A stretch of DNA of 62,720 bases from Patescibacteria group bacterium (GTDB taxonomy: Bacteria > Patescibacteriota > Patescibacteriia > Patescibacteriales > UBA12465), in the NCBI GenBank assembly GCA_041656935.1, contig JBBACQ010000006.1, forward strand, positions 1 to 62,720, written 5' to 3'. Below, piece by piece: positions 463 through 55,503 of the stretch; the first letter of the stretch is position 1; every line of letters begins with the position of its first letter. Made by a program: the position numbers and the translations under genes. Below the pieces are notes generated by a model that searched no databases, had not been told where the DNA came from, and saw only the letters and a program-made list of their open reading frames with translations.

Positions 463-1560
463 CTATTGAATAATTCCTCCTCCCAAAACTTCGTCGTTAA
501 GATAAAAAACAGCACTTTGACCAGGAGTAATAGCTCGTTGTTTTCTAAAAAAATTAACTTCGGCTATATTATTTTTTTTATCATAACTAACCGAACACTT
601 AACGGCCTTATGTCTATATCTGATTACCACTTCTATTTTTATCGGAAATTTTAATTTATCTTGATTAAGCCAATTAATGTTCTTAACTTTCATTTCACTA
701 CAATACAAAACCGGATCATTGAAATTTTTCACCACATTTAAAATGTTTTTTTGATAATCAAACTTAGCTACATAATAGGGCCCATTACCACCAATTTCAA
801 TCCCCCGTCTTTGCCCAATAGTATATAAAGCCAAACCCTGATGTTGACCAATAATCTCACCACTAGACAATAATTTTATATCACCTGATTTTAATTTTAA
901 ATGTTTCTTTAAAAAATCATTATGTCTTTTCCCAGGAATAAAACAAATCTCTTGGCTATCGCTCTTAGAAGCTACTAGCAATCCGGCTCTTTTAGCTATT
1001 TTTCTAACCTCTGGCTTTTTTAAACTGCCCAAGGGTAATAATAATTTAGACAATTCTTTTTGATTTAATGAATATAAAAAATAAGACTGATCCTTTTTCT
1101 TATCAAGACCTCTAAACATTTTCGTCTCTTTCCCGTCTTTTTCAACCCGAGCATAATGCCCCGTAGCTACATAATCAAACCCTAAAGATTCAGCGTATTT
1201 TATCAATCCCCCAATTTTTATTTTCTTATTACAAACGACACACGGATTAGGTGTATTTCCAATAGAATATTCATCTAAAAAATTATCAACCACCGCTTCC
1301 TTAAATTTTTTAGAAAAATCAAAGGTATAAAAAGGCACCCCTAAAGCTAAACAAACATTTTTGGCATCCATTTGAGCCTGAAGAGAACAACATTTATTTT
1401 CATTTTCTTTCTCTCCACCCTCTCGCCAAAAATTTAAAAAAATTCCACTAACTTGGTATCCTTGATCAGATAAAATTTTAACCGCTACCGCCGAATCAAC
1501 TCCGCCAGAAACAGCCACTAAAACTTTTATGGGTTTCTTTTTTTTATCTTTCTTAATCAT
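463..1560 (-). CDS. mnmA: tRNA 2-thiouridine(34) synthase MnmA
   Basis: SGGVDS PP-loop, NPCVVCN, ATGHYA, KDQSYFL, DSQEICF, YTIGQRRG, TPGQSAVFY. Confidence 0.97.
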   Translation of the reverse strand: MIKKDKKKKPIKVLVAVSGGVDSAVAVKILSDQGYQVSGIFLNFWREGGEKENENKCCSLQAQMDAKNVCLALGVPFYTFDFSKKFKEAVVDNFLDEYSIGNTPNPCVVCNKKIKIGGLIKYAESLGFDYVATGHYARVEKDGKETKMFRGLDKKKDQSYFLYSLNQKELSKLLLPLGSLKKPEVRKIAKRAGLLVASKSDSQEICFIPGKRHNDFLKKHLKLKSGDIKLLSSGEIIGQHQGLALYTIGQRRGIEIGGNGPYYVAKFDYQKNILNVVKNFNDPVLYCSEMKVKNINWLNQDKLKFPIKIEVVIRYRHKAVKCSVSYDKKNNIAEVNFFRKQRAITPGQSAVFYLNDEVLGGGIIQ

Positions 1561-1643
1561 AAAAAATAATCTAAATTTTCTCTTTATAGCCTAATATTTA
1601 AAAAACGAAATTTACTAAACAATTTAAATTCTTCTAGAAAATA

Positions 1644-2771
1644 TTAAATTGACCTAAAAATATTTAAATATTCTTCGGCCGTTTTTTCCCAAGAAAAATT
1701 ACTCACCCTCTTAAAACCTTTTTCAATTATTTTATTTCTTAAATTTTGGTCTTTCCAGAGCGAAGACATGGCTTCGGCTATCTCTAAGGGTTTATTAGGA
1801 TTTATCAGGATTGAAGCGTCGCCTAAAACTTCAGCTAAGCTGGAGACATTAGATCCAATAACTGGGACCCCAAAATACATAGCCTCTAGCGGTGGAAAAC
1901 CAAAGCCCTCGTAAAAAGAAGGATAAACGAAAATTTTAGCCTTCTTATACAAACAGGGCTTTAATTTATGGTCAATATAGGAAATAAACCTGATATCTGC
2001 TTTATATTTTGATTTTTGCCAAATCTCTTTAATTTCTCCTGTTTTCCAGCCCCAAGCTCCAGCTAAAACCAATAAGCAATCGTTCCCCTTATCTCTAAAT
2101 ATATTATAAGCCGAAATTAATCCCGCAATATTCTTTCGTGGTTCAATAGTACCTAAATATAAAATGTAATCTCGATCAATTTTATATTTACTCTTTAAAT
2201 AATCAAGATTAAAAACATAATTATCAGAATTTAAATCAGAAAAGTCTGGTAAGCCCGGATAAATTACCTCCACCTTATCTTCGGGGACATCTAAAAGCTC
2301 CAAAATATCATTTTTAGTATTCTGAGAAACAGCAATAATTTTATCCATTTTTTGGATATTTTTTTTAATATTTAATGACCAATGCCAAAAATTCTTTCTC
2401 CAACTAAAAAATTCTGGATAACGCAAAAAGGATAAATCATGGATGGTAATAACCTTTTTGGTTTTTTTAGAAAAAGAACTAAAATTAATATGAGGCGAAT
2501 AGAAAACATCACAACCTCCTATCACTTTATCTAATTTAGGATAATTTAATACTTTTTGCAAAAAATAATTGAAAATTTTATTAGGATAACGACTTTTTAT
2601 CGTTTTAACCGGAAAGTTAGGAACTGGGACAGATTTAAAAGAATTATAAAAAAAAGAATAAGCATTGTGCTTATCTATTTTTAAAATATTCTTTAATAAA
2701 TAATAAGTAAAACTAGCTACACCACTATAGTTTTTATCTAATAAAACCCTAATATCTACTCCGATTTTCAT
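1644..2771 (-). CDS. Glycosyltransferase family 4 (GT-B)
   Basis: TIHDLSF, GTIEPRKN, PSFYEGFGFPPLEAM motifs. Confidence 0.92.
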   Translation of the reverse strand: MKIGVDIRVLLDKNYSGVASFTYYLLKNILKIDKHNAYSFFYNSFKSVPVPNFPVKTIKSRYPNKIFNYFLQKVLNYPKLDKVIGGCDVFYSPHINFSSFSKKTKKVITIHDLSFLRYPEFFSWRKNFWHWSLNIKKNIQKMDKIIAVSQNTKNDILELLDVPEDKVEVIYPGLPDFSDLNSDNYVFNLDYLKSKYKIDRDYILYLGTIEPRKNIAGLISAYNIFRDKGNDCLLVLAGAWGWKTGEIKEIWQKSKYKADIRFISYIDHKLKPCLYKKAKIFVYPSFYEGFGFPPLEAMYFGVPVIGSNVSSLAEVLGDASILINPNKPLEIAEAMSSLWKDQNLRNKIIEKGFKRVSNFSWEKTAEEYLNIFRSI

Positions 2772-2782
2772 AATAATTTAGA

Positions 2783-3910
2783 TTAAGCTTTGTCTTTAGT
2801 ATAAACACTGTCAACGAAATCCTTAATGTTTTTTTGAAAATTAGAAGAGGAAAACTTCTTAGCGTGTTCCCTAATTTTATAACTATCCCAAACCTTTTTA
2901 TTATCTTTAATGTCTGTATAAAACTTTTGTACAACTGCTACAATCCCCTCGGCATTTTGCTCCTCAAAAAACACTCCGGTTTCATTTTCTATTATTGTTT
3001 CCAAAGCTCCTCCCTTTTTATAGGCAATTACCGGACGACCTGAAGCCATAGCCTCTACCTTAGAAATACCAAAATCCTCTTCCTGCGGGTTTATAAAGGC
3101 TAAGCATTTACTAAATAAACTAGCCTTATTTTCATCACTAATTCGACCTAAAAATTCAATGTTTTTACAATTGCCAGCTATTTTTTTCAATCTTTTAAGA
3201 TCAACTCCATCACCAAAAACTTTTAGCTTATAGTTCTCCCCCATTTTTTTAAAGGCCTCCACCACAATATCAACCCTCTTATAAGGGGCCAAACGACAAC
3301 CAATCAAAAAGTAATCTCCAACCTCTTTAGCTATAAAAAACTTATCAATTTCTACTGGAGGATAAATCACCACCGAATCTCTTTGATAATACTTTTTAAT
3401 TCTGTTTTTAACAGTTTCTGAATTGGCAATAAAATAATCAACTCGATCAGCTGCCAAGCGATCCCAAATTCTAATACGACTTAAAATTAAAGAGGCTATT
3501 TTTTTTATTAATCTATTATACTTTAATTCATTTATATATTGATGAGTGTCGCTCCATAAATAACGAGTTGGAGTATGGCAGTAACAAATATGAACGGTTT
3601 CTGGCAGAGTTATAACTCCCTTAGCAAAAGAACTGGTGTCAGATAAAACTAAATCATAATTTCTTAAATCAAAGAATTCTACGGCCATCGGCATAAAAGG
3701 TAGATACCATTGATAAAACCGAACTCCCCCCGGCATCTTTTGGATAATAGAGGTGTCTATTCGACGATTAGGATAGCGCTGAGCTACATTTTTCTTATCA
3801 TAAAGCAAAGTATAGATAGGCGCCTGAGGAAACATCTTAGTAAAAACCTCCAAAACCTTTTCGGCTCCACCATCTTGAGCTAAATGATCATGAATTAAAG
3901 CAACTTTCAT
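2783..3910 (-). CDS. Glycosyltransferase family 4
   Basis: Likely start MKVALIHDHL at 3910 (ORF track starts at 3940); GGAEKV, YCHTPTRYLW, EDFGISKVEAMASGRPVIA. Confidence 0.92.
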   Translation of the reverse strand: MKVALIHDHLAQDGGAEKVLEVFTKMFPQAPIYTLLYDKKNVAQRYPNRRIDTSIIQKMPGGVRFYQWYLPFMPMAVEFFDLRNYDLVLSDTSSFAKGVITLPETVHICYCHTPTRYLWSDTHQYINELKYNRLIKKIASLILSRIRIWDRLAADRVDYFIANSETVKNRIKKYYQRDSVVIYPPVEIDKFFIAKEVGDYFLIGCRLAPYKRVDIVVEAFKKMGENYKLKVFGDGVDLKRLKKIAGNCKNIEFLGRISDENKASLFSKCLAFINPQEEDFGISKVEAMASGRPVIAYKKGGALETIIENETGVFFEEQNAEGIVAVVQKFYTDIKDNKKVWDSYKIREHAKKFSSSNFQKNIKDFVDSVYTKDKA

Positions 3911-51666: not shown

Positions 51667-52635
51667 TTAAATGTTTACGGCAATATATTCCAAGGTGTTC
51701 CTAATGTTTATATTTAAAGCCAATCTTCTTAAGCCCTGATTTAAAACAATGGAATCTTCTCTTATTTTCTTTAAATCTAAATTATCATTTCTAAAAGATT
51801 CTAAATTTTCTAGGGCAAAAATATTTTTGATATAATCGTAATGACCTAAATGAATAAATATTAAATCGCGTAAAACTGATTGCCAAATAGTCAAGATTTC
51901 GGAATTAGAAAAAAATTCATTTTTCTTTATAACATTATCAATGATTTTAGTTCGATCTAAAAAATTGCTTTTTAAAAAATCTATAAAATCATAAACTATA
52001 GCCTTATAATTATTATAGAGCTCCTCATTCTCGATAAATTTTATAGCAACAGCCGGGCAACCAGAAGATATTCTGGCTAATTCTTTGGCCAAACTTGGAC
52101 CAACTTTAAATTCATCTATTAAATGCTTATAAATCAAATCAAATTTAACTGGAAACAAATTTACTATTTGAGATCGGGAAATAATAGTTTTAGGTAATTT
52201 ATCAACATCATCAACTGTTATGATGATAACGGTTTTATCATTCGTTTCTTCTAAAACTTTTAATAAGGCATTAGCTGAATTTTCGTTTAGGTTTTCTGCA
52301 TTTTTAATAATTGCTGTTCGATAGGAATTTAAAAAGGAACTGGTTTTAAATCTTTCAATTAATCCTCTAATTTGGTCAATAGAAATATCTTTTTTATCCT
52401 CTTCTCTCTCGACTACAAAAAAGTCACTGTTAGTCTCTAAAAAATTTTCTTTGGGTCTTAAATCGGGCTGATCTTGAAAGAAAATATTAGAAATAAAATT
52501 TTTGGCTAAAGTAAATTTTCCGGTTCCTGATAAACCAGAGAAAATATAAAAATTAGCAATGTTTTTGCTAGCTAAACTTTTATCTAAAAACTCAACCGCT
52601 CTATTATTACCAATAATTTTCCAATTAAAATCCAT
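51667..52635 (-). CDS. holB: DNA polymerase III delta' subunit (clamp loader)
   Basis: IIGN..A, GLSGTGK, ISIDQIR, AE.LN..SANALLK.LEE, TI.SR.Q. Confidence 0.85.
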   Translation of the reverse strand: MDFNWKIIGNNRAVEFLDKSLASKNIANFYIFSGLSGTGKFTLAKNFISNIFFQDQPDLRPKENFLETNSDFFVVEREEDKKDISIDQIRGLIERFKTSSFLNSYRTAIIKNAENLNENSANALLKVLEETNDKTVIIITVDDVDKLPKTIISRSQIVNLFPVKFDLIYKHLIDEFKVGPSLAKELARISSGCPAVAIKFIENEELYNNYKAIVYDFIDFLKSNFLDRTKIIDNVIKKNEFFSNSEILTIWQSVLRDLIFIHLGHYDYIKNIFALENLESFRNDNLDLKKIREDSIVLNQGLRRLALNINIRNTLEYIAVNI

Positions 52636-52896
52636 AGATATTTTAGCTTAAAGAAAAGATAAAAAAGCGGAAGTTTTCCACTAATAAACAATACTTATAA
52701 TAACAAATTTAAATAATAAATACAAATCTAAAATATGGGGTTAAAATGGTCTTTTTCGGCACTAAAATTAGAGGGATTAATATAAAGGAAAGTTACCAGC
52801 AACTACAATTAATTAATCCAAGTGCAGAAAATAAAGACTTTCTATTTTTTTTCTAATATGCTATACTATTGTCATATTAATAAATAAGTAAAAAAT

Positions 52897-54438
52897 ATGA
52901 TAACTAAAAAGCAAAAAGAGGTTTTATCCTTTATTGAAAATTATAATAAGAAAAATGGTTATTCCCCTTCTCTAGAAGAAATCAGAAAAAAGTTTAAATT
53001 ATCTTCTGTCTCCACTGCTCATTACTATGTAAAACAATTAGATAAATTGGGTTATTTAGAAAAAGAAGAAAATCATGCTAGATCAATAGCTCTATCTAGT
53101 TCTGGGGTTATTGAGGTTGAAATAATGGGCACGATAACAGCAGGAGAACCAATTGAAGCTATAGAAACAAAAGGAGAAACAATATCTATATCTGCCAAAG
53201 ATTTAGATTTAAGCACTGAACATTATGCATTAAAAGTAAAAGGCGACAGCATGATAGAGGAAGGAATATTTGATGGAGATATTGTTATAATAAAGAGACA
53301 ATCCGTTGCTGAAAACGGGCAAACAGTTGTCGCTATAATAGATGACAATACGGCAACTTTAAAAAAATTATATAGAGAGAAAAATGAATTTAGATTACAA
53401 CCAGCTAATCAAAATATGCTACCCTTTTTCAGAAAAGAGGTAGAGGTTAGGGGCGTAGTTGTAAATATAATTAGAAAATTAGATTCTGACAAACCAGAAT
53501 TTAAAACCCTTGATTTATTCGCTGGGATTGGTGGCATTAGATTGGGTTTTGAGAAAGCTGGATTTAGCACTATTTTTGCCAATGACTTTGATAAAAGTTG
53601 TAAAAACACTTATGATTTAAATTTTAAAACCTCTAAACTAATAGTAGAGGATATTAGAAAAATAGGAATAGAAGATCTCCCTGATTTCGACTTTTTACTA
53701 GCAGGATTCCCTTGCCAATCTTTTTCAATAGCCGGGTACAGAAAAGGTTTTGAGGATAAAGATAGGGGTAATTTATTTTTTGATATTGCTAGAATAATAA
53801 AAGCAAAAAGACCAGCGGGGTTTTTATTGGAAAATGTAAAAAATCTAAAAGGTCATGATGGCGGAAAGACTTTTAAAATTATAGAGAAAACACTAATTAA
53901 TCTTGGTTATTATATAAAATCAAAAGTTTTAAATAGCATGGAATATGGAAATATTCCTCAAAATAGAGAAAGGATATATATAGTTGGATTTAAAAATAAA
54001 AAATATATAGATAATTTTGAATTTCCGAAACAAATAAAATTAAATATAAAAATCAAGGATGTTCTAGATAAAGAAGTTGATGAAAAATATTATTATAACA
54101 ACAAACCTCTGTTTAAAAAAATTAAAGATGATATTAAAGATCAAAATAAAGTTTATCAATGGAGAAGAAAATATGTTAGAGAAAATAAAAAAGGCGTATG
54201 CCCGACATTAACCGCTAACATGGGAATGGGCGGTCACAATGTTCCAATAATAAAAGATAAAAAAGGAATAAGAAAATTAACTCCTAGCGAATGTTTCAGA
54301 ATTCAAGGGTTCCCTCAAAACTATAAACTACCTAAAGAATTAGCTGACTCTGCTTTATATAAGCAAGCTGGAAACTCAGTGACAGTTACCGTAATTGAGA
54401 ACATTGCAAAGGAGATAAAAAAAGCTATCGAAAAATAA
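52897..54438 (+). CDS. lexA: LexA repressor fused to a C5-cytosine DNA methyltransferase (M.Bsp6I-like)
   Basis: wHTH (PSLEEI, S.STAH.YV..L), Ala82-Gly83, Ser118 (GDSM), Lys156 (TLKK); then FAGIGG, GFPCQ, ENV, QNRER, YQWRRKYVREN...CPTLTANMG.GGHNVP, AGNSV. Confidence 0.92.
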   Translation: MITKKQKEVLSFIENYNKKNGYSPSLEEIRKKFKLSSVSTAHYYVKQLDKLGYLEKEENHARSIALSSSGVIEVEIMGTITAGEPIEAIETKGETISISAKDLDLSTEHYALKVKGDSMIEEGIFDGDIVIIKRQSVAENGQTVVAIIDDNTATLKKLYREKNEFRLQPANQNMLPFFRKEVEVRGVVVNIIRKLDSDKPEFKTLDLFAGIGGIRLGFEKAGFSTIFANDFDKSCKNTYDLNFKTSKLIVEDIRKIGIEDLPDFDFLLAGFPCQSFSIAGYRKGFEDKDRGNLFFDIARIIKAKRPAGFLLENVKNLKGHDGGKTFKIIEKTLINLGYYIKSKVLNSMEYGNIPQNRERIYIVGFKNKKYIDNFEFPKQIKLNIKIKDVLDKEVDEKYYYNNKPLFKKIKDDIKDQNKVYQWRRKYVRENKKGVCPTLTANMGMGGHNVPIIKDKKGIRKLTPSECFRIQGFPQNYKLPKELADSALYKQAGNSVTVTVIENIAKEIKKAIEK

Positions 54439-54441
54439 ATA

Positions 54442-55290
54442 TTACAATTTTTCAATAAATTCTTGCCAATCTTCATCGGAATTATGCATTTTTCCAACAC
54501 ACTTTACATAACGATAATCAGGATTTCCTGAAAAAATTTGTCCAGGAATTTCTGTCGCTCTTTCAAGTTCTTGATGATATGAAAATCCTGTAATCCATAT
54601 TGGAATTTCTCTCAATTCTCTTATCTTTCTAAAGCCCTCGGAAGTTTCTAAAAAGTCTTTTACATTTTTAAAAAAAGAATGTTCTCTCAATATTCTAAAT
54701 AAATGGTCCGACGGCAGTCCTACCCTAACAAAAATATAAACATCTGACTTTCTGATATCATTTTCGTATTCTATCGGTGCAATAATATTCCAACAATTTT
54801 TCCATTTACTTGATTTCACCGCAACTCCTATTTTAACAGCTCTATATTGACCATTTTCTTTTATTCCGTCGAAATCCTGAGGAGTAATATGTTCTGGATG
54901 AACTTCCATGTCTAATTTTATATCAATATTAAATTTATTTTTAAAAAATTTTTGAACTCCATGCTCTGCTAATATCCCCAAAATAAAATCATCGGCCATT
55001 TGGACCTCGCTTCTAACTCCTCTAATGCCAGTACCATGACTTGCTTTTCCGGAATATGCCATTTTTAAAGCAAACTCAAAACATTTTTCGTATTCATCAA
55101 GATTTAAATTTATAATTCGAGAATCTCTTAGTTCTTTCCATTTTTCTAACTCTAGCTTGTTAAATTTCCACCTGCCCCTTTCTTTAAATCCGGAAAATTC
55201 TTGGCCACTTTCAAAATAATTTTCAAACTCTTTTTCATTAATTGACAAAAAATCAATTGCTTCTTTTTTTGTTAAAATAATCTCTTCCAT
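54442..55290 (-). CDS. Probable type II restriction endonuclease with N-terminal excisionase-like HTH
   Basis: Convergent with the MTase (3-bp gap); N-terminal LT.KEA..FL.I...WKF..ELE.W; PD-(D/E)XK-like GILAE...PQDFD...VAVKSSK...D.YIFV. Confidence 0.65.
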   Translation of the reverse strand: MEEIILTKKEAIDFLSINEKEFENYFESGQEFSGFKERGRWKFNKLELEKWKELRDSRIINLNLDEYEKCFEFALKMAYSGKASHGTGIRGVRSEVQMADDFILGILAEHGVQKFFKNKFNIDIKLDMEVHPEHITPQDFDGIKENGQYRAVKIGVAVKSSKWKNCWNIIAPIEYENDIRKSDVYIFVRVGLPSDHLFRILREHSFFKNVKDFLETSEGFRKIRELREIPIWITGFSYHQELERATEIPGQIFSGNPDYRYVKCVGKMHNSDEDWQEFIEKL

Positions 55291-55440
55291 ATTTTATAAA
55301 ATTATTTTTTAGATCTTTTTAATTTATAAATATAACTTATCATAATTTTATCTAAAAATCAATTTTATTTTAATCTAACATAAAACAAAATATAGCCTAA
55401 ATAAGCTCTATTTTTAAATTCCTCGTGCTAGCACTATGTT

Positions 55441-55459
55441 GCTGAGGGTAAAAGATTCG
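55441..55459 (-). repeat. Duplicated tRNA-Ser 3' end (att-like)
   Basis: GCTGAGGGTAAAAGATTCG versus GCGGAGGGTAAGAGATTCG at 56639-56657: 17/19 identical, same orientation. Confidence 0.6.
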
Positions 55460-55503
55460 GCCACACGTCGCTAAGTCTCGCTTGTCTCACTTCGTTCGAC
55501 TGC

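What the first reader, a model, noticed from the sequence alone, without database searches (positions are those of the whole stretch)
52897..54438. Cleavable LexA fused to a C5 DNA methyltransferase: SOS-wired restriction-modification
Seen: intact LexA DNA-binding domain, Ala82-Gly83 scissile bond and Ser118/Lys156 dyad, joined in frame to a full C5 MTase. Its target-recognition region (YQWRRKYVREN..CPTLTANMG.GGHNVP) closely matches recalled M.Bsp6I (GCNGC). Established: RecA* triggers LexA self-cleavage at Ala-Gly. Inference: the methylase represses its own or SOS promoters, and DNA damage both derepresses it and frees the MTase from the DNA-binding domain, boosting protection when hemimethylated or unmethylated repair DNA appears.
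Basis: partly seen in the sequence, partly recalled or inferred. Interest (0 to 1): 0.62.

Follow-up and report, generated by a model that had tools for sequence, protein, structure and literature searches.

The report
LexA-fused methylase of a restriction cassette
One gene of an uncultured Patescibacteria bacterium joins a complete, apparently self-cleaving LexA DNA-damage repressor to the protective cytosine methylase of a mobile GCNGC-type restriction system; the LexA part most likely shuts off the gene's own promoter, a form of restriction-system control I found in no paper.

Summary
ORF 52897-54438 (+) encodes 513 aa: a LexA winged helix, an S24 autopeptidase (Ala82-Gly83, Ser118, Lys156), a linker of about 10 residues, then a full C5 DNA methyltransferase. 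It is not an assembly artefact: more than 431 species genomes carry the same fusion.

It is an accessory gene, present in 1 of 15 same-genus genomes. It forms a cassette with a convergent, unannotated 282-aa candidate endonuclease (54442-55290, -).

The promoter carries a tandem repeat, TTTCTA-N5-TTTCTA, over the -35 hexamer and spacer. Across 77 relatives the repeat sequence changes together with the LexA recognition helix. In this genome the operator is not enriched and lies at no SOS gene. So the LexA part is a private autorepressor, not the cell's SOS regulator. The genus has its own 210-aa LexA-like protein and recA.

GCNGC specificity is supported by Bsp6I-family partners in relatives, a conserved target-recognition region, and extreme GCNGC depletion in this genome.

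Self-cleavage and its trigger are inferred only. The same LexA module is fused to at least five methyltransferase families. I found no published description. This is a new variant of autoregulated restriction-modification methylases.

The parts
52783..52896 (+). Promoter/operator region of the cassette. DNA homology with the 91%-identical relatives starts at 52783.
   Evidence: blastn against L006-L009 gives 84-86% identity from 52783 through the end of the M gene.
52839..52855 (+). Putative operator: tandem direct repeat TTTCTA (52839-52844), N5, TTTCTA (52850-52855), with an 11-bp period. Half-site 1 occupies the -35 position and half-site 2 lies in the spacer.
   Evidence: Read from the sequence. 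In 52 of 77 relatives a pair of TTC-containing 7-mers matching at 6 or more of 7 positions lies exactly 11 bp apart, against 0.5 in shuffles. The half-site core tracks the recognition helix. It is the only perfect intergenic copy in the genome.
52862..52867 (+). Candidate -10 hexamer TATACT, preceded by TG at 52859-52860 (extended -10). It is 17 nt from half-site 1.
   Evidence: Read from the sequence. The relatives L006-L009 have TATAAT at the same place. The simple consensus scan did not list it, because the -35 is weak.
52897..54438 (+). LexA-C5 methyltransferase fusion gene, 513 aa.
52900..53082 (+). LexA winged-helix DNA-binding domain (residues 2-62), with recognition helix S39-T-A-H-Y-Y-V45.
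   Evidence: PF01726. Helix/operator covariation.
53122..53463 (+). S24 autopeptidase and dimerisation domain (residues 76-189): scissile Ala82-Gly83 (53140-53145), Ser118 (53248-53250), Lys156 (53362-53364).
   Evidence: PF00717. Residues confirmed. G83, S118 and K156 are invariant and A82 is at least 90% conserved in 64 diverse fusions. A-G is present in 75 of 77 and the Ser in 77 of 77 close relatives.
53500..54423 (+). C5 cytosine DNA methyltransferase domain (residues 202-509), catalytic Cys273 (53713-53715), target-recognition region at about residues 425-460. Inferred target GCNGC.
   Evidence: PF00145 and TIGR00675. M.HhaI is the best solved relative. 55.6% identity to a Lactococcus plasmid methylase next to a Bsp6I-family endonuclease, with 26 of 33 target-recognition residues identical.
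54442..55290 (-). Candidate restriction endonuclease, 282 aa: N-terminal excisionase/MerR-type HTH plus an alpha/beta core with PQD138...A156-V-K158...E173. It is convergent with the M gene, with 3 nt between the two stop codons.
   Evidence: ORF. Weak HTH_17 match. 396 unannotated homologues. It sits next to a related C5 methylase in bacteria and in DPANN archaea. AlphaFold2 pLDDT 90 but no significant PDB neighbour. The motif aligns with EPD...EIK of a sister subfamily.
55327..55460 (+). Right flank shared with relatives. It ends in a fragment resembling the 3' end of tRNA-Ser (55437-55460).
   Evidence: blastn against L006-L009. In L007 and L009 the homologous stretch abuts an intact tRNA-Ser gene.
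56639..56724 (-). Intact tRNA-Ser(GGA) gene. Together with holB (51667-52635, -) it bounds a variable interval that holds the cassette.
   Evidence: ARAGORN and Rfam. The same-genus genome G011 has different cargo between tRNA-Ser and holB.

Best explanation
This is a mobile Type II restriction-modification cassette (about 52783-55460), most likely GCNGC-specific. Its methylase carries its own controller, a complete LexA module. Dimers of the fusion bind the tandem repeat TTTCTA-N5-TTTCTA, which covers the -35 hexamer and spacer of the gene's own promoter. That holds methylase synthesis at a set level by negative autoregulation, the job done by C proteins or by the N-terminal HTH of M.SsoII-type methylases in other systems. 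Because the module keeps the Ala-Gly bond and the Ser/Lys dyad, RecA bound to single-stranded DNA should trigger self-cleavage between the DNA-binding domain (residues 1-82) and the S24-methylase part (83-513). The host has recA. Such DNA would arise from damage, from self-restriction breaks or from DNA uptake. Cleavage would derepress the promoter and raise methylase output. Through terminator-less convergent transcription it may also lower endonuclease expression. That would be a built-in restriction-alleviation circuit. Shown here: the architecture, conservation of the cleavage machinery, the operator and its covariation with the helix, accessory and mobile status, and linkage to nuclease genes. 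Inferred: DNA binding, cleavage and its trigger, the GCNGC target, and nuclease activity of the 282-aa partner.
For: Architecture and LexA equivalog score. Same fusion in more than 431 species genomes at 60-91% identity. The cleavage-site Gly, the Ser and the Lys are 3 of only 11 invariant columns across 64 diverse LexA-methylase fusions, and are kept in 74-77 of 77 close relatives. Operator: a tandem repeat with 11-bp period at the promoter in 52 of 77 loci against 0.5 in shuffles. The half-site core co-varies with the helix. A-(Y/H)-Y goes with TTTCTA in 8 of 8 loci. V/I-(E/Q)-H goes with TTCGG in 48 of 59; five more of these loci carry an SG-x-YQH helix with mixed TTCTG+TTCGG half-sites. 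x-H-H goes with TTTCGA in 2 of 3. This includes loci where the operator is inverted and lies downstream of the -10. The operator is confined to the gene's own promoter. Restriction-modification context: a convergent downstream gene in 76 of 80 loci, falling in 6 unrelated families that include RE_Bsp6I, NgoFVII_C and PDDEXK_5. The window's partner family also sits beside LexA-less methylases 65-70% identical in DPANN archaea, with Vsr nearby. GCNGC: the four GCNGC words are the four most depleted of 1024 pentamers in this genome, O/E 0.41. The target-recognition region matches a methylase partnered with a Bsp6I-family endonuclease. recA is present. Accessory status: 1 of 15 same-genus genomes. 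The R gene has been swapped inside a constant promoter-M frame. Precedent for LexA on an 11-bp direct repeat: Caulobacter GTTCN7GTTC (PMC9578287).
Against: Cleavage competence is inferred from residues only, and the bulky C-terminal methylase could alter S24 dimerisation or RecA* docking. The -35 element is weak, and the generic promoter scan did not call this promoter. The helix/operator covariation is partly clade-structured, so the independent events are fewer than the loci. The 282-aa partner has no significant structural neighbour (best Foldseek E 0.25). It has Ala where the sister subfamily has the catalytic Glu. GCNGC depletion does not track carriage: two other carriers have O/E 0.85 and 0.89, and non-carriers have 0.86 and 0.65.
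Confidence: 0.6

Rival explanations
1. Autorepressor only. The LexA module serves as a dimeric DNA-binding controller that times and limits methylase expression, as a C protein or the SsoII-type N-terminus does. Self-cleavage plays no physiological role or happens only as slow turnover. There is no link to DNA damage.
For: The operator is private to the gene's own promoter. Many S24 repressors use the C-terminal domain mainly for dimerisation (general knowledge). In archaeal versions of the same M-R pair a small separate ORF sits in the equivalent upstream position, overlapping the M start. That shows a simple controller suffices.
Against: G83, S118 and K156 are invariant, and the residues around the catalytic Ser (V114, G116, M119) are also among the 11 invariant columns over fusions that are otherwise only 27-64% identical to the window's fusion. 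That pattern is hard to explain without selection for peptidase activity. LexA fusions appear in bacteria with recA, whereas the archaeal cassettes seen lack the module.
Confidence: 0.25
2. The fusion is the cell's master SOS repressor. It also controls recA, uvr and polymerase genes, so DNA methylation is an output of a genome-wide SOS regulon.
For: It is the best-scoring LexA in the genome (171 bits against 98 for the other S24 protein).
Against: No operator copy lies at any SOS gene, and there is no enrichment genome-wide. The gene is absent from 14 of 15 same-genus genomes. A different 210-aa LexA-like protein is vertically conserved in 11 of 15.
Confidence: 0.04
3. The LexA-fused gene is an orphan epigenetic methylase. 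The downstream 282-aa gene is not an endonuclease, and the fusion marks DNA for gene regulation or repair rather than for self/non-self discrimination.
For: The partner has no nuclease Pfam domain and no significant fold match. A canonical catalytic Glu is replaced by Ala156.
Against: A tightly abutting convergent gene is nearly universal (76 of 80). In other loci it belongs to recognised endonuclease families (Bsp6I, NgoFVII, PD-(D/E)XK). The 282-aa family co-occurs with this methylase family across two domains of life, with Vsr. GCNGC avoidance in this genome is extreme. Invariant E108, D138, K158 and E173 fit a Cfr10I-like variant of the PD-(D/E)XK site (the Cfr10I comparison is from general knowledge).
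Confidence: 0.08
4. Artefact: two adjacent genes (lexA and dcm) were joined by a sequencing or assembly error.
For: None found.
Against: Hundreds of independent assemblies give the same uninterrupted frame and length. The linker is short and conserved.
Confidence: 0.01

Closest known systems
LexA SOS repressor (TIGR00498; MEROPS S24; structures 1JHH of E. coli and 3K2Z of Thermotoga)
   Same: Full-length match to residues 2-195: winged helix, Ala-Gly site, Ser/Lys dyad. It scores above the equivalog cut-off.
   Different: It is fused to a 315-aa enzyme. It is accessory and mobile rather than a core gene. The operator is seen only at its own promoter. The operator is a direct repeat, not a palindrome.
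Autoregulatory C5 methyltransferases with an N-terminal DNA-binding region (M.SsoII, M.Ecl18kI, M.EcoRII, M.MspI, M.ScrFIA; reviewed in PMC3874152)
   Same: The methylase itself carries the DNA-binding part that represses its own promoter. The logic is the same: set the methylase level and time establishment.
   Different: Those N-termini are short HTH regions without a peptidase, so they cannot sense a signal. SsoII-type systems are divergent and also activate R, whereas here M and R are convergent. That review mentions LexA only for toxin-antitoxin systems.
Bsp6I / Fnu4HI (GC^NGC) and NgoFVII (GCSGC) restriction-modification systems
   Same: The methylase is 56-59% identical, target-recognition region included, to plasmid methylases partnered with Bsp6I-family endonucleases. 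Relatives with 91%-identical methylases carry RE_Bsp6I genes, and others carry NgoFVII-type genes.
   Different: The window's own partner belongs to a different, undescribed family. The methylase carries the LexA module.
Caulobacter/alphaproteobacterial SOS box GTTCN7GTTC (PMC9578287)
   Same: A LexA operator built as a direct repeat with an 11-bp period.
   Different: A different half-site (TTTCTA here, TTCGG in most relatives), and a single-promoter target.
Restriction alleviation after DNA damage (ClpXP degradation of Type I HsdR) and the competence-induced DpnA methylase of the DpnII system (both from general knowledge)
   Same: The proposed purpose is the same: shift the balance towards modification when unmethylated or damaged self DNA appears.
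   Different: Those act by proteolysis of the nuclease or by a competence promoter. Here the sensor would be built into the methylase polypeptide.

Membership tests
LexA (TIGR00498 / Peptidase S24) | N-terminal LexA-type winged-helix DNA-binding domain | tested here: met
   PF01726 50.3 bits (cut-off 23.7), residues 2-62.
LexA (TIGR00498 / Peptidase S24) | S24 domain with Ser-Lys dyad and Ala-Gly scissile bond | tested here: met
   PF00717 96.5 bits. A82-G83, S118 and K156 confirmed. Invariant across 64 fusions.
LexA (TIGR00498 / Peptidase S24) | Whole-protein score above the equivalog cut-off | tested here: met
   171.2 bits against 110.95.
LexA (TIGR00498 / Peptidase S24) | RecA*-stimulated self-cleavage | not testable with these tools
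   This needs biochemistry. recA is present in the genome.
LexA (TIGR00498 / Peptidase S24) | Represses a multi-gene SOS regulon | tested here: not met
   Perfect operator hits: 2 against 3.0 expected. One-mismatch hits: 67 against 60. The only intergenic perfect site is its own promoter, and none lies at a repair gene.
C5 DNA methyltransferase (PF00145 / TIGR00675) | Conserved motifs I, IV (PCQ), VI (ENV), VIII (QxRxR) and X (GNSV), and a full-length profile match | tested here: met
   Profile positions 1-324 matched. Motifs located. 220 bits to M.HhaI.
C5 DNA methyltransferase (PF00145 / TIGR00675) | Forms 5-methylcytosine in DNA | not testable with these tools
   No methylome data was accessible.
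Bsp6I/Fnu4HI-type GCNGC restriction-modification system | Methylase target-recognition region like that of methylases paired with Bsp6I-family endonucleases | tested here: met
   55.6% identity overall and 26 of 33 in the YQWRR...GGHNVP stretch, against the pAF22 methylase next to an annotated Bsp6I-family endonuclease.
Bsp6I/Fnu4HI-type GCNGC restriction-modification system | Endonuclease of family PF09504 (RE_Bsp6I) | tested here: not met
   The window's partner gives only a weak HTH_17 match. PF09504 is found in the partners of the 91%-identical relatives L006-L009.
Bsp6I/Fnu4HI-type GCNGC restriction-modification system | Genomic avoidance of the target | tested here: inconclusive
   In the window's genome the four GCNGC words rank 1-4 of 1024, O/E 0.41. 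Other carriers have 0.85 and 0.89, and non-carriers 0.86 and 0.65.
SsoII-type autoregulatory methyltransferases | DNA-binding N-terminus fused to the methylase, with an operator in its own promoter | tested here: met
   Fusion. The operator is inferred from conservation and helix covariation. Binding itself is untested.
SsoII-type autoregulatory methyltransferases | Short HTH N-terminus without a peptidase, and a divergent R gene activated by the same binding | tested here: not met
   The N-terminus is a full LexA with an S24 domain. The R gene is convergent.
C-protein-controlled restriction-modification systems | Separate small HTH controller gene with a C-box | tested here: not met
   There is no small ORF of that kind between 52636 and 55460.
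PD-(D/E)XK restriction endonucleases (for the 282-aa partner) | Alpha/beta core with a D...(D/E)xK catalytic motif | tested here: inconclusive
   PQD138...A156-V-K158 aligns with EPD...EIK of a sister subfamily. Foldseek finds nothing significant; the weak hits include SPARDA, SfiI, SwaI and Hjc.

The most novel reading that the evidence does not exclude
Patescibacteria carry a phylum-wide, undescribed way of controlling restriction-modification systems. A portable, self-cleaving LexA module travels with its matching tandem-repeat operator. It has been attached to DNA methyltransferases of at least five families (C5, N6_N4/beta, D12/Dam, gamma N6_Mtase, Eco57I-type). The 'self' mark would then be raised whenever RecA senses single-stranded DNA from damage, self-restriction or DNA uptake. 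In most relatives, though not in this window, a perfect DnaA-box sequence sits 9-14 nt upstream of the operator. That would additionally tie methylase synthesis to replication initiation.
Probability: 0.4. Interest if true: 0.8.

Novelty: new variant of a known kind. Interest (0 to 1): 0.62.

Why it matters
Type II restriction systems must keep methylase and nuclease in balance, or they kill their host. The known controls are C proteins, methylase N-terminal HTH regions and antisense RNAs, and none of them senses the state of the chromosome. A methylase with a built-in LexA would be the first Type II control element able to read DNA damage directly. It would also be the first case of LexA recruited as a private sensor by a mobile defence element.

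The family is very large: 3284 protein clusters match the module within the searched length range. It dominates in bacteria with tiny genomes that take up foreign DNA. The natural helix/operator variants (TTTCTA, TTCGG, TTTCGA) are also a ready-made set of orthogonal repressor-operator pairs. A cultivated carrier exists, Saccharibacteria TM7i (L079; PMC9894109), so the idea can be tested.

Tried and rejected
1. Global regulon. I searched the whole 893-kb genome for TTTCTA-N5-TTTCTA with up to one mismatch. There is no enrichment and no SOS gene target, so I rejected the master-regulator reading.

2. GCNGC avoidance as a marker of carriage. Two other carriers (G002, G020) are not depleted, and one non-carrier (G011) is moderately depleted. 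I withdrew the idea that depletion correlates with carriage. The window genome's own depletion remains consistent with the specificity.

3. Fold assignment of the 282-aa partner. The AlphaFold2 model is confident (pLDDT 90) but Foldseek against the PDB gave no significant hit. Nuclease status rests on gene context and a partial motif.

4. Rfam for the GC-rich elements at 55454-55572 and 56508-56576. Nothing was found beyond tRNA-Ser.

5. A recombinase in the window's cassette. None is present. Homologues of the serine recombinase seen in L007 lie on other contigs of the window's genome (C7, C13).

6. Empty-site comparison. The same-genus genome G011 has other cargo, not an empty site, between tRNA-Ser and holB.

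7. Transcript or read evidence.

8. Literature. Four full-text searches found no description of LexA-methyltransferase fusions.

9. The 49-aa ORF upstream of the archaeal methylase. It gives only a sub-threshold ribbon-helix-helix match (E 0.03).
Full report
**1. The observation**

ORF 52897-54438 (+) is open, starts with ATG and encodes 513 aa.

- Pfam finds LexA_DNA_bind (residues 2-62), Peptidase_S24 (76-189) and DNA_methylase (202-509, whole profile).
- NCBIfam scores residues 2-195 at 171 bits against the LexA equivalog model (cut-off 111). The rest scores 345 bits against dcm.
- The best solved relatives are M.HhaI (220 bits) and Thermotoga LexA 3K2Z (135 bits).
All C5 motifs, including the catalytic Cys273, are present.
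- Only about ten residues (LDSDKPEFKT) separate the end of the S24 domain from methyltransferase motif I.

**2. It is real and widespread, but accessory**

The 120 best protein clusters all have the three domains at 68-91% identity. At least 431 species-representative genomes, almost all labelled or recognisable as Patescibacteria, encode a relative.

Within the window's own genus only 1 of 15 genomes has it (G002, 91% identity). One genome of another family in the same order has an 80% copy. Upstream neighbours differ from locus to locus.

The window's copy lies in the interval between holB and tRNA-Ser(GGA). In the same-genus genome G011 that interval holds quite different genes: a toxin-antitoxin-like pair, an HD-like protein and adenylosuccinate lyase (assigned by eye from the translations, not run against Pfam). 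So this is horizontally moving cargo.

**3. Restriction-modification context**

In 76 of 80 related loci a gene on the opposite strand ends within a few bases of the methylase stop codon. These partners fall into six mutually unrelated families. Three have recognised nuclease domains: RE_Bsp6I, NgoFVII_C and PDDEXK_5.

The window's partner (54442-55290, -, 282 aa) belongs to a family of 396 unannotated proteins. In DPANN archaea the same family sits beside free-standing 327-329-aa C5 methylases. Those are 65-70% identical to residues 199-499 of the window protein, and a Vsr mismatch endonuclease is often adjacent. Co-inheritance with this methylase family in two domains of life is the main argument that it is the endonuclease.

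The structural evidence is weaker.

- The AlphaFold2 model is confident (pLDDT 90.1, pTM 0.87), but Foldseek finds no significant PDB neighbour.
- The N-terminus resembles excisionase/MerR-type HTH domains.
- The weak hits for the core are mostly PD-(D/E)XK nucleases.
- Its PQD138...A156-V-K158 aligns with EPD...EIK of a sister subfamily. Invariant E173 lies 15 residues after the Lys, which recalls the Cfr10I-type variant (general knowledge).

DNA homology with the 91%-identical relatives runs from 52783 to the methylase stop. It resumes at 55327-55459, while the gene between is a Bsp6I-type nuclease in those relatives. So nuclease genes have been exchanged inside a constant promoter-methylase frame.

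**4. Specificity**

Three lines point to GCNGC.

- The partners of the closest relatives are Bsp6I-family (GC^NGC), and other partners are NgoFVII-family (GCSGC).
- The nearest annotated plasmid methylases are 56-59% identical.
- In the window's genome the four GCNGC pentamers are the four most under-represented of all 1024 (O/E 0.37-0.45; the next lowest is 0.68). GCNGC overall is 395 observed against 956 expected.

There is one caveat. Depletion does not follow present-day carriage in four control genomes. It shows long exposure of this particular lineage rather than proof of activity.

**5. The operator**

Upstream regions of 77 relatives, aligned at the start codon, show a tandem direct repeat with an 11-bp period lying on the promoter.

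In the window it is TTTCTA (52839-52844), N5, TTTCTA (52850-52855), followed by TGcTATACT. Half-site 1 therefore occupies the -35 position and half-site 2 the spacer. A pair of TTC-containing heptamers matching at 6 or more of 7 positions, exactly 11 bp apart, occurs in 52 of 77 loci. Dinucleotide shuffles give 0.5.

The half-site core changes with the LexA recognition helix S-T-x-H-x-x:

| Helix residues | Half-site | Loci |
|---|---|---|
| A-(Y/H)-Y | TTTCTA | 8 of 8, plus L011 |
| V/I-(E/Q)-H | TTCGG | 48 of 59 |
| x-H-H | TTTCGA | 2 of 3 |
| SG-x-YQH helix | mixed TTCTG+TTCGG | 5 of 5 (also counted in the 59 V/I-(E/Q)-H loci above) |

The relation holds where the operator is inverted and lies downstream of the -10 (L027, L048, L053, and the second site of L013).

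This is the strongest available evidence, short of an experiment, that the LexA domain reads these repeats. The groups are partly clades, so the number of independent changes is smaller than the number of loci. A direct-repeat LexA box with the same period is known from Caulobacter (GTTCN7GTTC; PMC9578287).

**6. Not the cell's SOS regulator**

In the 893-kb genome the perfect operator occurs twice (3.0 expected from third-order Markov simulations). One-mismatch versions occur 67 times (60 expected). The only perfect intergenic site is the gene's own promoter. The few one-mismatch intergenic sites precede a ribosomal-protein gene, a ParA-like gene and other ORFs that did not look like repair genes; these were judged by eye from their N-terminal residues.

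The genome has recA. It also has a separate 210-aa S24 protein with a LexA-like N-terminus, Cys-Gly in place of Ala-Gly, and the Ser/Lys dyad. That protein scores 98 bits against TIGR00498, below the cut-off, and is 25% identical to the fused module. It is conserved in 11 of 15 same-genus genomes at 67-84% identity, so it is the lineage's own repressor.

**7. The module is portable**

I searched with residues 1-198 alone.

- Fusions to D12/Dam-class, N6_N4, UPF0020+N6_N4 and gamma-class methyltransferases share 60-69% identity in the LexA part.
- Against 1.8 billion representatives, about 46 of the 58 best hits are longer than 260 aa with the match at their N-terminus. Free-standing LexA proteins of about 200 aa appear at 40-50% identity.
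- Of 63 such representatives, 31 carry N6_N4_Mtase, 7 Eco57I-type, 5 D12, 5 N6_Mtase and 4 C5.
- In their alignment only 11 columns are invariant. These include Gly83, Ser118 and Lys156, plus V114, G116 and M119 around the catalytic serine.

That pattern argues that peptidase activity, not only dimerisation, is under selection.

**8. Mechanism proposed**

The fusion dimerises through its S24 domain and sits on the two half-sites. It blocks RNA polymerase and so limits its own synthesis. On entry into a naive cell the promoter is free, which gives early methylation.

When RecA filaments form, self-cleavage at Ala82-Gly83 detaches the DNA-binding domain. The promoter opens and more methylase is made. 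The enzyme part stays joined to the S24 domain.

The two genes converge with 3 nt between their stop codons and no terminator between them. More methylase transcription may therefore also interfere with nuclease transcription.

DNA binding, cleavage, its trigger and the interference step are all inferences. The main rival is the same autorepression without a physiological role for cleavage.

**9. Comparison with what is known**

It works like M.SsoII-type self-repressing methylases and like C-protein control (PMC3874152). However, the controller is a full LexA with a signal-sensing peptidase, and the gene layout is convergent. By sequence it is a LexA, but it fails the functional feature of controlling a regulon. 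It is a C5 methylase of the Bsp6I-partner type.

Four full-text searches found no paper describing LexA-methyltransferase fusions. Databases name these proteins either 'transcriptional repressor LexA' or 'DNA (cytosine-5)-methyltransferase'.

Earlier notes of this scan had reported the same fusion in other genomes. I read them before finding the operator, so my operator search was primed by them. The tests reported here were all run afresh on this window and genome. They contradict one earlier speculation, that the fusion is the cell's only LexA, for this genome.

**10. Verdict**

It is a new variant of a known kind of control and is probably undescribed. It is of real interest to people working on restriction systems and SOS, and it is testable in E. 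coli and in a cultivated Saccharibacteria strain.

Noticed in passing
L014, L018, L021, L023 and about 30 other related loci, 9-14 nt upstream of the operator; not in the window: A perfect DnaA-box sequence (TGTGGATAA, the reverse complement of TTATCCACA) lies at a fixed distance upstream of the first operator half-site in 34 of 77 relatives. Shuffles give 0.08. In L010, L013 and L022 a similar box lies downstream of the -10. It may couple methylase expression to replication initiation, or it may mark the cassette end.
   Followed up: partly
window 55454-55572 and 56508-56576: A GC-rich element of about 70-115 nt in an otherwise 31% GC genome. The two copies in the window are 91% identical, and there are at least nine copies on eight contigs of the genome. 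One also lies next to tRNA-Ser in the same-genus genome G011. There is no Rfam match. It could be a dispersed repeat or an unknown small RNA.
   Followed up: partly
window 55437-55460, and tRNA-Ser(GGA) at 56639-56724 (-): A fragment resembling the 3' end of tRNA-Ser (about 16 of 20 matches by eye) ends the cassette's right flank, 1.2 kb from the intact tRNA-Ser gene. In L007 and L009 the homologous flank abuts tRNA-Ser genes with other anticodons (TGA, CGA). L007 also has a large serine recombinase and a terminase-like gene nearby. This suggests that islands targeting tRNA-Ser carry these cassettes. No recombinase is present in the window's interval.
   Followed up: partly
window 55589-55628: A perfect 18-bp inverted repeat with a 4-nt loop (TAACAAAATAAACCTGCC / GGCAGGTTTATTTTGTTA) lies just after the GC-rich element. 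It would serve as a bidirectional terminator-like hairpin.
   Followed up: no
window 55716-56324 (-): A 202-aa ORF with a predicted membrane N-terminus, no Pfam match and no homologue in any fetched locus. It lies between the two GC-rich repeats.
   Followed up: partly
L004 (contig C1 of the window's genome) 1486-2463 and 2466-3446 (-): A second, conventional restriction-modification system: a HaeIII-family endonuclease (PF09556, 325 bits) with a free-standing C5 methylase. GGCC is nevertheless not depleted in the genome (O/E 0.93).
   Followed up: partly
L002 (contig C10 of the window's genome) 1273-1905 (+): A 210-aa LexA-like S24 protein with Cys-Gly at the cleavage position, as in UmuD. 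It is conserved across the genus and is probably the lineage's own damage-responsive repressor. Its operator and regulon were not examined.
   Followed up: partly
window 52848-52870 and 53640-53662: A 23-nt inverted repeat, 91% complementary, between the promoter (second half-site plus the -10) and a stretch inside the methyltransferase coding region (LIVEDIRKI). It could be chance in AT-rich DNA or an internal half-operator.
   Followed up: no
L087-L094 (DPANN archaeal contigs): The same methylase-nuclease pair occurs in Nano-/Pace-/Woesearchaeota without LexA, usually with Vsr. In L087 a 49-aa ORF overlaps the methylase start (ATGA). It gives only a sub-threshold ribbon-helix-helix match and may be a stand-alone controller in the position the LexA module holds in bacteria.
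   Followed up: partly
G011:C1:276859-277560 and G020:C28:3568-4185: Possible decayed relatives. G011 has a methylase-like frame with an internal TGA. Next to the intact fusion in G020 there is a LexA-like frame with three stop codons.
   Followed up: no
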